The position numbers and the translations under genes were made by a program. The notes under the pieces are model-generated. The model was not told the origin of the DNA, made no database searches, and was given only the letters and a program-made list of their open reading frames with translations. 49,284 nt of DNA from NCBI GenBank assembly GCA_964622585.1, contig CAZUQT010000004.1:1-49284 (forward strand), read 5' to 3'. Every line of letters begins with the position of its first letter. The first letter of the stretch is position 1. This document shows, in pieces, positions 5,819 to 11,538 of the stretch. This stretch comes from an uncultured Elusimicrobiaceae bacterium. GTDB lineage: Bacteria; Elusimicrobiota; Elusimicrobia; Elusimicrobiales; UBA9959.

Positions 5819-6805
5819 ATGAGGACAAAAACAATAATGCTGGCACTTTTGGCGGTAACCGCGGGCGTCTTCGCTTATACGCCCCCACATAACGCTACCC
5901 CGTCCGACCTGAGGGATGCGGTGGCCGACCGCGCTATTGACACGCTGAAAACCGAGGCCGGCGCGGAGGCTTCCGGTGTCAGTATTACGAAGCCGGATAT
6001 AAAGCCGTTCTATGTCGAGACCGGCTCCAGAAAGGCTCCAGGCAATAAGGGTTATGTGGCCGGGACGGATTCGGTAGCCGGCGTGCCTGTAAAGCCGGTG
6101 GTGTTCAACACCATCCCCGGCGGAAAGTTCACCATGGGGACGGACACCGGCGAAAAAGGTTTTGAAGATGCCAAGCCGATCCATGAGGTTGCCATCAAAA
6201 CCTTTGATATGTCCAAAACAGCGGTTACCGTAGAGCAATACGCGGAATGCGTGATCAAAGGCGCCTGTACGGAACCGGGCACCGGCGATTATTGCAACTG
6301 GGGCAAGCCCGGCCGCCAGCTTCACCCTGTGAACTGCGTGAACTGGGACCAGGCGCAGGCTTATGCCAAGTTCAAAGGCGCGCGGCTCCCCAGCGAAGCC
6401 GAGTTCGAGTATGCGGCCACAAGCGGCGGCAAGAATCAGAAATACCCCTGGGGCGATGATGAGCCGACCTGCGACAAGGCCGTGATGTATGGTAACGACG
6501 GTTTCGGTTGTGGTAAAAACAGCACGATGCCGGTGTGTTCAAAGCCTGCCGGTAATACCGCGCAGGGTTTGTGCGATATGGTGGGGAATGTCTGGCAGTG
6601 GATGCAGGATAAATACCAGGATTCATACAAGGGTGCGCCTGTTGACGGCAGTGCGTTTGAAGCTGCGGGCTCCGCCCGGGTGATGCGTGGCGGTTCCTTC
6701 GGCAGCAATGTCGCCAGGTACCTGCGGGCCGATTTCCGCTTCTACGGCGGCCCTGGCGACCGCGTCGGCGGCATTGGGTTCCGCCTCGTGAGGTCCAGTC
6801 GTTAA
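5819..6805 (+). CDS. Secreted FGE-sulfatase (SUMF1/CLec-fold) domain protein with DLRDAVAD leader; candidate DGR target
   Basis: Signal peptide; IPGGKFTMG, HPVNCVNW, RLPSEAEFEYAA, YPWG, DMVGNVWQW, RGGS and GFR motifs. Confidence 0.9.
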   Translation: MRTKTIMLALLAVTAGVFAYTPPHNATPSDLRDAVADRAIDTLKTEAGAEASGVSITKPDIKPFYVETGSRKAPGNKGYVAGTDSVAGVPVKPVVFNTIPGGKFTMGTDTGEKGFEDAKPIHEVAIKTFDMSKTAVTVEQYAECVIKGACTEPGTGDYCNWGKPGRQLHPVNCVNWDQAQAYAKFKGARLPSEAEFEYAATSGGKNQKYPWGDDEPTCDKAVMYGNDGFGCGKNSTMPVCSKPAGNTAQGLCDMVGNVWQWMQDKYQDSYKGAPVDGSAFEAAGSARVMRGGSFGSNVARYLRADFRFYGGPGDRVGGIGFRLVRSSR

Positions 6806-6807
6806 CT

Positions 6808-6838
6808 CTTGGACACTTGTCCAGTTGGTCCTTGGACA
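6808..6838 (+). other. Short hairpin / repeat element just after the FGE gene stop (possible DGR homing hairpin)
   Basis: TGGACA-CT-TGTCCA inverted repeat at 6810-6823; CTTGGACA repeated at 6808 and 6831. Confidence 0.4.
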
Positions 6839-6901
6839 TGAGCTGTTGCGATAAATCGGTATTATGAGTGAACGCTAGATCAGCGGGATAAAGGTGATCT
6901 T

Positions 6902-7642
6902 ATGAAAACCAGAATAGTATTGATCATTCTCATCGCGGCAACCGTCGGCGTGTCCGTTTACACGCGGCCGCACAATGCCCTGCCCTCCGATCTGCGGGAC
7001 GCGCCTAATTCAAACGCCTCCGCGCTCGGGCAGCTTGACACCTCCGGTCGGGATGGGGGAGGCTCCCTGCCTGTCCCGGTTCCTGCGCGGGCGGCTAAAG
7101 ACGGTTTTGTTGCGCCCGCGAAACTGACGGTGCGCGATGTTACTGGCGTAGTCGCAAAACTCCAAAGGCCGGCGCCGCCGATGAACTATATATTGGCGCA
7201 CATGAACGGCGCCGGATTCAATGCGAATGCCTGCGTCGGCAGATACGCGTCGGACATGGTATTCCTCGCGTCCGAAAGAAGCTTCCAGTCAACTGCGCGG
7301 GACCTTGCCGGGTATGATTTTATCGCCGATATACTGGTCACAAGAGATGTCCTGCCCGGCAATCCTAAAATGACGCTTTTGGGCGACGGAACGTGGGATT
7401 TCATTGTGGTAAAGCTCGCCGGGCTGCCGCCCGTACTGGCCATGGAGGCGGAATTGCGCGCGAACCGCTTAAGCGTGATGACCTGTTACGACGTTAACAG
7501 GGAACATTTTCTCCTGGTCCTGGCGCCCAATAATCCTCCCGCGTTAGCGCATATAGAAAAAACCCTGTCAGGATATGACTTCATCAGGGAGATAGAGATG
7601 AACCAACGGTTGTACAGCACGCTTAAATCTAACCAATACTGA
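6902..7642 (+). CDS. Secreted hypothetical protein with DLRDA leader and an internally duplicated domain
   Basis: MKTRIVLII...YTRPHNALPSDLRDA leader. LAGYDFIADI and LSGYDFIREI close two similar halves. Confidence 0.75.
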   Translation: MKTRIVLIILIAATVGVSVYTRPHNALPSDLRDAPNSNASALGQLDTSGRDGGGSLPVPVPARAAKDGFVAPAKLTVRDVTGVVAKLQRPAPPMNYILAHMNGAGFNANACVGRYASDMVFLASERSFQSTARDLAGYDFIADILVTRDVLPGNPKMTLLGDGTWDFIVVKLAGLPPVLAMEAELRANRLSVMTCYDVNREHFLLVLAPNNPPALAHIEKTLSGYDFIREIEMNQRLYSTLKSNQY

Positions 7643-7779: not shown

Positions 7780-8295
7780 ATGCAGACGCTGACCGGAATG
7801 GGCTTTTTTTAATCAGGCCCGTTCCGCGTGGTGTTTGCCGTCATTGGCTTTTGGATTCTTCTGGAGCGAAGATATCCCGGTGCATAATGAGAACTTCTTC
7901 TTTTGAAAGCGTTTTTTTCATGAGGACTTTAGGATGAAGATCCGGACGGCGGCGATCGCCGGGCTTGCGCGGTACAGGGATGAAAGGGTGTTCAAAGCGC
8001 TGGAAAACCGGCTGGGTGACAAATCGCAGTCGGTACGCAGCCTGGCCGCCTGACGGCATGAATGCCCCCTTGGACACAATTAAAGGCTGCTGGGAAAAGG
8101 CAGCTAAAAAAGACGGGCGCGAATTATTCGAACGGGTCGAACTTATACGCGCGGAGGAAGCCGCCGTTTCCGGTTACAGCCTCCAACTGGCGCAAATACT
8201 GGATAACGCCAACGGCTACGCCACGCATGATAAGGGAGAAAACACCGGTTTTTTTCCTTATAGAGACCCGGATAGAAAAATTAAAAGAATTCTGA
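7780..8295 (+). pseudogene. Mosaic, frameshifted remnant of a paralog of the 10690 HTH regulator
   Basis: The 5' part resembles MMGTGFSKQLIKARSA. The 3' part (FERVELIRAEEAAVSGYSLQLAQ...GFF / LIETRIEKLKEF) matches the 10690 C-terminus with a frameshift in a T-run near 8250. Confidence 0.8.
7934..8053 (+). pseudogene. HEAT (PBS-lyase-like) repeat fragment embedded in the regulator remnant
   Basis: Translates to MKIRTAAIAGLARYRDERVFKALENRLGDKSQSVRSLAA*, a HEAT-like pattern (LxDxxxxVRxxAA). Confidence 0.5.
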
Positions 8296-8299
8296 GGTT

Positions 8300-8424
8300 T
8301 GGTAACTATTCCTGTTCCTAAAATCGCCGGCGGAATAACACGGAGTTTTAGGTCTTATAACTGCCCGCCCCTTCCCTTCCGCCTCATGCCATAACCGCCG
8401 GTTTGAGTTAGACTATGATTGTAG
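8300..8424 (+). promoter_or_regulatory. Promoter cassette B, copy 1 (downstream of the HTH regulator remnant)
   Basis: Collinear with 11551-11675: TGGTAAC..TTCCTGTT, CCTAAAA/TTTTAGG inverted pair, CTTCCC..GCCTCATGC, -10 TAGACT at 8409. Confidence 0.65.
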
Positions 8425-10689: not shown

Positions 10690-11538
10690 ATGATGGGAAC
10701 GGGTTTTTCGAAACAGCTCATTAAGGCGCGTTCAGCAGCGGGGTTCGACACGGCCTACAAATTCTACCACCGTAACGGCGGCCGACGGCATTTTAAATTC
10801 ACCTTTGTTCACTACAGCCGTATAGAGCGCGGGGTTTCACTGCCGCGCGCCGAAGGGTTGCAGGGAATTCTTTTGGCTTTGCGTTTTCTGCCCACCGAAG
10901 CCGGGGCGAGGGAACTGCTTGTTTCATACCTTCGAAGCGCATTGGGTGGCGGCCCCGCAGCGGATTACATATTGAACCCGCTTTTCAGCGGAGGCGGTAA
11001 TATTGCCAGTTCCGCAGGTCCCATGGACTGGATAAAAGCCCACAATTCCGTGCACCTTTCTCCTGACGAGTTTTCCGCCATAGCGGCCAGCGAAACAGCC
11101 TACTGGTGCGCGGAAGCCCTCTGCAACGATTCCGGGGCGTGGAGACCGGAGGAGCTGGCCGGGAAACTCAATCTGGAAGCCAAAGCGGTAAAAACCGCCT
11201 TAGAGAAATTGAAAAAAGCCGGGATAGCCGTTAAGAGCGCCGGCGGCAAATACAAATGCCGCTATCAGGGGAAATTTTTCACCTACCCGGGCCGCCTTGA
11301 AGGCATGGATAGATCACTCGCCGCGGTAAAGTCATACTGGGATAAAGCCGGGGTGAACGGCAGGATCTTTTTCGAGCGTGTAGAACTCATCCGCGCGGAG
11401 GAAGGCGCCGTTTCCAACTACCGCCTGCAGCTGGCCCAGGCTATGGATGGGGCCAACGCCTACGCCACCCACTCCGGCGGGGACACCTCCGGTTTCTTCC
11501 TGATAGAGACACGTATAAAAAAGATACGGAAATTCTGA
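10690..11538 (+). CDS. Transcriptional regulator with an N-terminal XRE-like HTH and a second winged HTH
   Basis: FSKQLIKARSAAGF...HYSRIERGVSLP (XRE-like) and PEELAGKLNLEAKAVKTALEKLKKAGI (wHTH-like). Confidence 0.75.
   Translation: MMGTGFSKQLIKARSAAGFDTAYKFYHRNGGRRHFKFTFVHYSRIERGVSLPRAEGLQGILLALRFLPTEAGARELLVSYLRSALGGGPAADYILNPLFSGGGNIASSAGPMDWIKAHNSVHLSPDEFSAIAASETAYWCAEALCNDSGAWRPEELAGKLNLEAKAVKTALEKLKKAGIAVKSAGGKYKCRYQGKFFTYPGRLEGMDRSLAAVKSYWDKAGVNGRIFFERVELIRAEEGAVSNYRLQLAQAMDGANAYATHSGGDTSGFFLIETRIKKIRKF

What the first reader, a model, noticed from the sequence alone, without database searches (positions are those of the whole stretch)
6671..6838. FGE/CLec gene 3' end looks like a DGR variable region (remote target)
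Seen: between fixed scaffold residues (RGGS, LRA, R, P, R, IGFRL) nearly all codons are NNC/NNT: GGC AGC AAT GTC, TAC, TTC, TTC TAC GGC GGC, GGC GAC, GTC GGC GGC. A short hairpin follows the stop. Known: DGRs mutate the adenines of AAC/AAT codons in a template repeat (typically RGGSWNN..RNNN.P.NRNNNIGFR) and commonly target FGE-type CLec folds, with downstream hairpins. Inference: this is a diversified target whose reverse transcriptase and template repeat lie elsewhere, because neither is in the window.
Basis: partly seen in the sequence, partly recalled or inferred. Interest (0 to 1): 0.75.

Follow-up and report, generated by a model that had tools for sequence, protein, structure and literature searches.

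The report
Retroelement-written hypervariable tip, engine missing
The last 127 coding bases of this secreted lectin-like gene were rewritten by a diversity-generating retroelement, a known mutator system, but the mutator itself is not in this draft genome and turns up on a plasmid-like element in a sister species.

Summary
Window 6666-6792 is the 3' end of a 328-aa secreted FGE-type C-type-lectin gene (5819-6805), and it is a DGR variable region (VR).

A same-genus genome, G003, carries a full cassette: FGE target, HRDC, bAvd, RT and template repeat (TR). Against that TR the window differs at 24 of 35 adenine sites and at 3 of 91 other sites (Fisher p 2e-14). The 450 nt upstream show no such bias (23/121 vs 41/329, p 0.09).

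Two paralogues in this genome, on C300, fit the same TR. Three others (C210 x2, C2) are more decayed.

Across the genus, 18 such "fresh" VRs lie in 14 of 43 genomes, yet only G003 holds the matching RT and TR. There it sits on a contig with a TrwC relaxase, IS91, ParAB and a toxin-antitoxin pair.

In this genome (86% complete, 374 contigs) I found no RT, Avd or TR. Contigs from three samples carry the identical VR. Whether the engine is unbinned or lost stays open.

The "hairpin" after the stop is an inverted repeat that folds no better than shuffled sequence and is not conserved as a structure.

This is a known kind of system in a new host lineage. This scan has met orphan DGR VRs before on other DNA.

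The parts
5819..6805 (+). Target gene: 328-aa secreted, non-catalytic FGE-type C-type-lectin-fold protein
   Evidence: ORF. PF03781 at E 2.2e-51, residues 98-325. PDB hits include FGEs and the Treponema denticola variable protein TvpA (2y3c, E 1.6e-13). In the alignment to FGE 6muj the two catalytic-loop cysteines (LC..YC) have no counterpart in the query.
5819..5875 (+). Probable signal peptide (MRTKTIMLALLAVTAGVFA), a leader shared by the paralogues and by the next gene
   Evidence: Read from the translation; the cleavage site is an inference. The leader recurs at 6902-7003 (59% identity over 34 aa) and at contig ends C68 and C210.
6666..6792 (+). DGR variable region (VR), homologous end to end with the template repeat of G003:C69 and of metagenome contigs L061 and L062
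   Evidence: Alignment A2. 24/35 TR-adenine sites and 3/91 other sites differ (p 2.2e-14). The TR reads GSNRVIRGGSFNNNDARNLRADNRNNNDPGNRNNNIGFRLA and the window reads GSARVMRGGSFGSNVARYLRADFRFYGGPGDRVGGIGFRLV.
6674..6771 (+). Span holding all 24 changed adenine sites. In the TR, 33 of its 35 adenines are at codon positions 1-2.
   Evidence: The non-adenine differences are at 6775, 6787 and 6789; the last two equal the TR variant of contig L062.
6776..6792 (+). G+C-rich 3' end of the VR shared with the TR (GGGTTCCGCCTCGTGAG). VR and TR diverge right after it. Candidate IMH-like homing end.
   Evidence: Invariant or nearly so in all paralogues and relatives. Its role is an inference from the Bordetella phage model (recalled).
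6793..6860 (+). Last codons, stop (6803-6805) and a conserved non-coding tail with inverted repeats at 6810-6838. The sequence motif CTTGGACACTTG...CTGTTGC is shared by targets in several species. Possible target-recognition element, not a proven hairpin.
   Evidence: conservation. (fold z -0.72 and -0.45). (0 compensatory pairs).

Best explanation
Window 6666-6792 is a variable region written by a diversity-generating retroelement of the HRDC-plus-Avd type.

Mechanism, by analogy with studied DGRs. A template repeat with 13 AAY codons is transcribed. The DGR reverse transcriptase copies it and misreads adenines. The cDNA then replaces the VR at the 3' end of the gene. This randomises about 19 codons on the ligand-binding face of a secreted lectin-fold protein that has lost the FGE catalytic cysteines, while the scaffold residues (RGGSF, LRAD, P, R, IGFRL) stay fixed.

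The gene is one of at least three targets in this genome that fit the same template (C4, and two on C300). Three older paralogues also exist.

The engine (RT, Avd, HRDC, TR) is outside the window and is not in the draft genome. Its nearest known copy is in a sister species on a relaxase-bearing plasmid- or ICE-like contig. I therefore think it most likely that the engine here is on a mobile element that was not binned (about 55%), or that it was lost recently (about 45%).

What is shown: adenine-specific writing from a template at least 97% like G003's at its non-adenine sites. What is inferred: that writing is still going on, where the engine is, and what the protein binds.
For: (1) G003:C69 holds FGE target, HRDC (PF00570, 3.4e-16), bAvd (PF22296, 3.5e-16), RT (PF00078, 1.2e-15) and a TR in one row.

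(2) Window VR against that TR: 24/35 adenine sites and 3/91 other sites differ, p 2.2e-14. G003's own VR gives 21/35 and 1/91.

(3) Control: in the 450 nt upstream, with G003's gene as pseudo-template, 23/121 adenine and 41/329 other sites differ, p 0.09.

(4) Between the window and four other species (G003, G015, G017, G018), non-adenine VR sites are 96-99% identical (87-90 of 91). The 450 nt upstream are 82-86% identical and the adenine sites 26-49%. This fits recent overwriting from a conserved template.

(5) Across 18 fresh VRs in 14 of 43 genus genomes, 376 of 630 adenine-site cells are changed against 69 of 1638 other cells. 34 of 35 adenine sites vary.

(6) The window and C300a share a non-adenine variant at 6775, seen in none of the other 16 fresh VRs and in none of the three TRs. 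This hints at a lineage-specific template.

(7) Near-identical cassettes lie on short metagenome contigs: L061 is 3.4 kb with RT 86% aa and TR 94%, and L062 is 1.5 kb with RT 87% and TR 98%. Contigs of that size can easily escape binning.

(8) The G003 contig also carries a TrwC relaxase, IS91 transposases, ParA/ParB, an integrase and BrnT/BrnA.
Against: No RT, no bAvd, and no RT, Avd, HRDC or TR by tblastn/blastn at E up to 10 in the 3.36-Mb assembly. No TrwC or IS91 backbone like G003's either.

Logan contigs of three samples from one study (X1, X2, X3; depth 2.5-7) carry exactly the window's VR with 0 differences. No population heterogeneity was seen, although contigs drop minor variants.

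13 of the 14 genus genomes with fresh VRs also lack the cognate RT, among them one rated 100% complete in 40 contigs. That could equally mean repeated loss.

The template used for the test comes from another species, not from this genome.
Confidence: 0.9

Rival explanations
1. Orphaned, frozen VR. The region was written by a DGR in the past, but the engine has been lost from this lineage, and the sequence now evolves like any other coding DNA.
For: No RT, Avd or TR in the assembly. Identical VR in contigs of three samples. 13 of 14 genus genomes with such VRs lack the cognate RT. Three paralogues in this genome (C210a, C210b, C2) show 13-21 of 91 non-adenine mismatches, including third-position drift, which is what decay after loss of writing looks like.
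Against: Only 3 of 91 non-adenine sites differ from the congener's TR, while the upstream gene is 14-18% diverged. Any loss must therefore be recent. The bin is 86% complete in 374 contigs, and its paralogue-bearing contigs are only 3-5.5 kb. Cognate cassettes elsewhere sit on 1.5-3.4-kb contigs.
Confidence: 0.4
2. No retroelement is involved. This is an ordinary paralogue family whose ligand-binding loops diverge under positive selection, and the NNC pattern reflects GC3 codon bias.
For: The genome is moderately G+C-rich (window 54.5% GC), and 55% of the gene's other codons already end in C or T. The scaffold residues are family-wide FGE motifs.
Against: The differences track the adenines of a real template next to a real DGR RT (24/35 vs 3/91, p 2e-14). 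The upstream control shows no adenine bias (p 0.09). Synonymous third-position C's of the variable codons are kept across species although the flanks are 14-18% diverged.
Confidence: 0.03
3. Segmental gene conversion among the tandem paralogues shuffles the C-terminal stretch.
For: There are at least six full paralogues, some in tandem, with conserved flanks on both sides of the variable stretch. C300a and C300b share an identical CGT codon at one variable position.
Against: Conversion copies existing blocks. It does not produce differences confined to template adenines, and no two of the six VRs share long identical variable blocks.
Confidence: 0.02

Closest known systems
Treponema denticola DGR and its variable protein TvpA (PDB 2Y3C); 'Architecture C' (HRDC-containing) DGRs of Wu et al. 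2018, NAR 46:11 (PMC5758913; passages read)
   Same: The target is an FGE-type C-type-lectin fold without FGE activity, and the VR is at the C-terminus. The cognate cassette in the sister species has an HRDC gene. There are several targets per genome, some far from the RT. TvpA matches the window protein at E 1.6e-13.
   Different: The host is an uncultivated Elusimicrobia lineage. The cassette has both HRDC and Avd in the order target-HRDC-Avd-RT-TR. The engine was not found in this genome. In the sister species it lies on a relaxase/ParAB contig.
Bordetella phage BPP-1 DGR (mtd VR, avd, TR, brt): the mechanistic prototype (recalled; summarised in PMC5758913)
   Same: Adenine-specific TR-to-VR information transfer, an Avd accessory protein, a C-type-lectin-fold target, and a G+C-rich 3' end of the VR.
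   Different: That one is phage-borne with a single adjacent target. Here the target is a cellular secreted protein, with multiple targets and an extra HRDC gene. No conserved downstream hairpin could be shown.
DGR RT OTUs assigned to groundwater Elusimicrobia in Roux et al. 2021, Nat Commun 12:3076 (PMC8144416; main-text passages; supplement tables 10 and 11 searched, two files not searched)
   Same: Same phylum, with a cellular target class listed.
   Different: That survey states it could not detect remote targets. I did not check whether its OTUs include the G003-type RT.
Orphan DGR variable regions reported earlier in this scan on other genomes (e1-3531609, e1-4726711, e1-1397636, e1-4861998)
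   Same: FGE/CLec gene tips with the adenine signature and no RT or TR at hand.
   Different: A different phylum. Here a cognate template at genus level gives a near-perfect adenine test, and the engine's carrier looks conjugative or mobilisable.

Membership tests
DGR variable region (target of a diversity-generating retroelement) | A TR/VR pair that differs (almost) only at template adenines | tested here: met
   24/35 adenine vs 3/91 other sites against the TR of same-genus G003:C69. Upstream control p 0.09. Caveat: the TR is from another species, and no TR was found in this genome.
DGR variable region (target of a diversity-generating retroelement) | A DGR-clade reverse transcriptase in the same genome | tested here: not met
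   0 matches to PF00078. No tblastn hit below E 1.6 with G003's RT. The assembly is 86% complete in 374 contigs, so absence is not shown.
DGR variable region (target of a diversity-generating retroelement) | An accessory gene (Avd and/or HRDC) with the RT | tested here: not met
   No bAvd in this genome. The only HRDC hit is a 28%-identical domain on C22. Both are present in G003's cassette.
DGR variable region (target of a diversity-generating retroelement) | VR at the C-terminal end of a C-type-lectin/FGE-fold (or Ig-fold) protein, with variable codons derived from AAY | tested here: met
   PF03781 covers residues 98-325 and the VR covers roughly the last 46 codons. The TR has 13 AAY codons, and 33 of its 35 adenines are at codon positions 1-2.
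DGR variable region (target of a diversity-generating retroelement) | 3' homing signals: an IMH-like G+C-rich end and a downstream hairpin/cruciform | tested here: inconclusive
   The G+C-rich shared end 6776-6792 is present, and VR and TR diverge after it. The inverted repeats at 6810-6838 fold no better than shuffles and do not covary. A conserved downstream sequence motif exists.
DGR variable region (target of a diversity-generating retroelement) | Within-population hypervariability at the adenine sites | tested here: inconclusive
   Logan contigs of X1, X2 and X3 carry the identical VR (0 differences) at depth 2.5-7. Contigs cannot show minor variants, and no raw reads were available.
Formylglycine-generating enzymes (catalytic FGE/SUMF1) | FGE-sulfatase domain | tested here: met
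   PF03781 at E 2.2e-51. PDB FGEs at E 5e-24.
Formylglycine-generating enzymes (catalytic FGE/SUMF1) | The pair of active-site cysteines in the loop after RGGS | tested here: not met
   In the alignment to 6muj the enzyme has LC..YC where the query has FGSN..VARY, with no cysteine. The protein is a binding-type fold, not an enzyme of this family.
HRDC-containing DGRs ('Architecture C', Wu et al. 2018) | An HRDC gene inside the cassette, and multiple or remote FGE-type targets | tested here: met
   Met for the cognate cassette in G003. This genome has 3 fresh and 3 older candidate targets on 4 contigs. Not testable for this genome's own cassette, which was not found.

The most novel reading that the evidence does not exclude
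The engine that writes these regions is carried by a conjugative or mobilisable plasmid/ICE (TrwC relaxase, ParAB, toxin-antitoxin pair) that moves between species of this Elusimicrobia genus. It rewrites resident chromosomal lectin genes in trans. As a result, most genomes (13 of 14 with fresh VRs) hold freshly written targets but no engine, and the template stays about 97% identical across species whose target genes are 14-18% diverged. That would be a shared, horizontally circulating mutator servicing host-encoded receptors.
Probability: 0.3. Interest if true: 0.55.

Novelty: new member of a known kind. Interest (0 to 1): 0.33.

Why it matters
It adds a clean, statistically strong example of remote DGR targets in an uncultivated Elusimicrobia genus from rock and groundwater habitats. 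Large surveys state that they cannot see remote targets (PMC8144416).

The practical lesson is that a template from a sister species can authenticate an orphan VR.

The open point with some wider interest is why 13 of 14 genomes with freshly written targets lack the engine. If the engine is a circulating plasmid or ICE, then diversification capacity is a transferable trait, separate from the genes it acts on.

The protein itself is probably a variable surface or periplasmic binder of unknown ligand.

Tried and rejected
(1) Searching this genome for the engine found nothing: PF00078, PF22296, tblastn with G003's RT, Avd and HRDC and blastn with its TR, and the G003 plasmid-backbone proteins (only distant ParA/ParB, integrase and nucleotidyltransferase hits).

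(2) Other DGRs of the genus were tested as possible templates for the older paralogues (G003:C18, G051:C180, G052:C330, G058:C407). Their TRs belong to other classes and have no match in this genome.

(3) Reads: only Logan contigs were on offer. They show the same VR in X1-X3 and breaks at 6664, which are explained by the paralogue-shared sequence just upstream. X4 does not cover the VR. This says nothing on minor variants.

(4) Hairpin: the single-sequence folds are not significant. The first alignment fold had two rows with wrong coordinates and is discarded.

(5) Synteny with relatives: the flanks held were too short and the family too multi-copy to call orthologues.

(6) A viral-contig scan with the RT gave one 39%-identical locus, not followed up.

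(7) The TR-end motif scan also hit DGRs of five other phyla with 75-81% TR identity. The 3' end of this TR class is therefore widespread and not diagnostic on its own.

(8) In one search two rows had wrong coordinates. The counts I report come from the corrected.

(9) Literature: the term pairs 'diversity-generating retroelement' + 'Elusimicrobia' and 'DGR' + 'Elusimicrobiota' gave no relevant paper. Elusimicrobia DGR OTUs appear only in supplement tables of PMC8144416 (files 9 and 12 not searched).

Full report
**What is there.** The finding lies at the 3' end of ORF 5819-6805 (+), 328 aa.
- The protein matches PF03781 (FGE-sulfatase) at E 2.2e-51 over residues 98-325.
- It begins with a hydrophobic leader, which I read as a signal peptide (inference from the sequence).
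- Among solved structures it matches true FGEs (E 5e-24) and also the Treponema denticola variable protein TvpA (2y3c, E 1.6e-13).
- In the alignment to FGE 6muj the enzyme's cysteine-bearing loop (LC..YC) is replaced by FGSN..VARY. This is therefore a binding-type lectin fold, not an enzyme.

**Check of the observation.** The scaffold residues and the NNC/NNT codons are as described.
- Codon bias: 33 of 43 VR codons end in C or T, against 156 of 282 upstream (p 0.008).
- Adenine content: 11 of 127 bases in the VR, against 205 of 847 upstream.
- The inverted repeats after the stop exist (6810-6815, 6818-6823, 6833-6838), but they fold no better than shuffles (z -0.72 as DNA, -0.45 as RNA).

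**Paralogues.** The window's genome, G000, is 3.36 Mb in 374 contigs and 86% complete.
- It holds six full paralogues: C4 (the window), two in tandem on C300, two on C210, and one on C2.
- There are also N-terminal fragments at contig ends.
- The flanks are conserved, and a stretch of about 100 nt before IGFRL is hypervariable.

**The template.** A DNA search of relatives showed that same-genus G003, contig C69, holds three things together: a VR-like match, a 345-aa RT 1 kb further on, and a second partial match just after the RT.
- The locus reads FGE target, HRDC protein, bAvd, RT, and a 127-nt repeat of the target's 3' end. Pfam confirms all four proteins.
- The repeat is a textbook TR. It translates as GSNRVIRGGSFNNNDARNLRADNRNNNDPGNRNNNIGFRLA, with 13 AAY codons.
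- Against it the window differs at 24 of 35 adenine sites and 3 of 91 other sites (p 2.2e-14). G003's own VR gives 21/35 and 1/91.
- As a control, over the 450 nt upstream with G003's gene as pseudo-template, 23 of 121 adenine and 41 of 329 other sites differ (p 0.09).
- Two of the window's three non-adenine differences (6787, 6789) equal the TR variant on metagenome contig L062.
- The third (6775) is shared with paralogue C300a and with none of the other 16 fresh VRs, nor with any of the three TRs. That hints at a template particular to this lineage.

**Freshness.** Between the window and the VRs of four other species (G003, G015, G017, G018), three kinds of site behave very differently.

| Sites compared | Identity |
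|---|---|
| Non-adenine VR sites | 96-99% (87-90 of 91) |
| 450 nt upstream of the VR | 82-86% |
| Adenine VR sites | 26-49% |

The synonymous third-position C's of the variable codons are retained. This is what repeated overwriting from a conserved template gives. Old, free-drifting sequence would not look like this.

Within G000, C300a (3/91) and C300b (5-6/91) fit the same template. C210a, C2 and C210b (13, 14 and 20-21 of 91, with third-position drift) look like older or abandoned targets. No other TR in the genus fits those three.

**Distribution in the genus.** I searched all 43 genomes of the genus that the tool holds.
- 15 have a match to the window's VR region.
- 18 VRs in 14 genomes have at most 8 of 91 non-adenine mismatches to the G003 TR.
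- Over these 18, 376 of 630 adenine-site cells are changed against 69 of 1638 other cells, and 34 of 35 adenine sites vary.
- A search of the same 43 genomes with the G003 RT found the cognate RT only in G003. Other DGR-type RTs, 42-48% identical (G003:C18, G051:C180, G058:C407, G052:C330), go with other TR classes.
- So 13 of 14 genomes with fresh VRs lack the cognate engine in their bins, among them one rated 100% complete in 40 contigs.

**The engine's carrier.** Besides the cassette, G003:C69 (15.6 kb) encodes a 967-aa TrwC relaxase/helicase, IS91-family transposase pieces at both ends, ParA and ParB, a tyrosine recombinase, and BrnT/BrnA. That is a plasmid- or ICE-like context.
- A scan of metagenome contigs with the TR's 3' motif gave two close relatives of the cassette on short contigs. 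L061 is 3.4 kb, with HRDC, Avd, RT 86% aa and TR 94%, followed by two ORFs that I did not identify with any tool. L062 is 1.5 kb, with RT 87% and TR 98%.
- Contigs of that size are easily left out of bins.
- G000 has no TrwC or IS91 backbone like G003's.

**Is it active here?** I could not settle this.
- The assembly holds no RT, Avd or TR.
- Only Logan contigs of four runs from one study were available. X1, X2 and X3 carry exactly the window's VR at depth 2.5-7, and X4 does not cover it.
- Contigs cannot show minor variants.
- My odds are about 55:45 for an unbinned mobile engine against recent loss.

**Downstream element.** The 10 aligned targets share a sequence motif after the stop (CTTGGACACTTG ... 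CTGTTGC), but no conserved hairpin. The motif may be a homing signal. That is an inference.

**Comparison with what is known.** The closest system is the Treponema denticola DGR. It has an FGE-type target (TvpA), an HRDC accessory gene ('Architecture C') and seven remote targets (PMC5758913, passages read).
- DGR RT OTUs from groundwater Elusimicrobia are already listed in supplement tables of PMC8144416. Its main text says that remote targets were beyond its method.
- This scan has reported orphan DGR VRs on other genomes before.
- The finding is thus a new member of a known kind.
- The one less ordinary aspect is freshly written targets without an engine across most of a genus, with the only engine seen sitting on a relaxase-bearing element.

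Noticed in passing
window 6902-7642 (+), compared with 5819-5920: The gene right after the target has no Pfam match, but it starts with the same roughly 34-aa leader as the FGE paralogues (59% identity; M.TR..L..A.T.GV..YT.PHNA.PSDLRDA). The leader also recurs as fragments at contig ends C68 and C210. It looks like a shared export or sorting signal reused by unrelated secreted proteins.
   Followed up: partly
window 7965-8321 (+) and 10690-11538 (+): The C-terminal part of the 118-aa ORF (...ERVELIRAEEAAVSGYSLQLAQILDNANGYATH...) resembles the C-terminus of the 282-aa ORF at 10690-11538, so it looks like a truncated paralogue. Relatives of the 282-aa protein also lie next to FGE genes in G017, G016 and on C2. 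Neither has a Pfam match. It may be the regulator of the 'operator-promoter module' noted earlier for this genome (e1-4847091); I did not test that.
   Followed up: no
L070/L033 = G003:C69:1-15651: This is a 15.6-kb contig with IS91 transposase pieces at both ends. It carries a TrwC relaxase, a DUF6036 nucleotidyltransferase, ParB/ParA, a short tyrosine recombinase, BrnT/BrnA and a complete HRDC-Avd-RT-TR DGR with its FGE target. The DGR thus sits on a plasmid- or ICE-like element.
   Followed up: yes
L034 (G003:C18), L037 (G051:C180), L038 (G058:C407), L039 (G052:C330): These are further DGRs of the genus with unrelated TR classes. For example, L037 has the TR/VR pair 1348-1470 / 485-607 (GGSWNNNATNARVSDRNNAGW...), and L038 and L039 have a TR reading VIRGGNWDNGANDGVFAFNANNAPSNVNTNIGFRC. 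None matches this genome.
   Followed up: partly
L063, L064, L066, L067, L068 (genome contigs) and L056-L060 (metagenome contigs): The 26-nt 3' end of the TR (…AACAACAACATYGGGTTCCGCC) occurs exactly in DGR templates of MAGs labelled Gemmataceae, Desulfococcaceae, Chloroflexi, Hydrogenedentota and Thermoanaerobaculia. Over the aligned part of the TR they are mostly 75-81% identical. The Chloroflexi contig is cut and matches only the last 59 nt (98%). RTs, where the locus holds one, are 39-51% identical (none on the cut L066). The end of this TR class is conserved far beyond the genus.
   Followed up: partly
window 6793-6860 and the same place in 9 other targets (alignment A4): The non-coding tail after the stop codon is conserved in sequence across paralogues and species about as well as the coding flank. 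It does not form a conserved hairpin. It may be a cis signal for homing or for regulation.
   Followed up: partly
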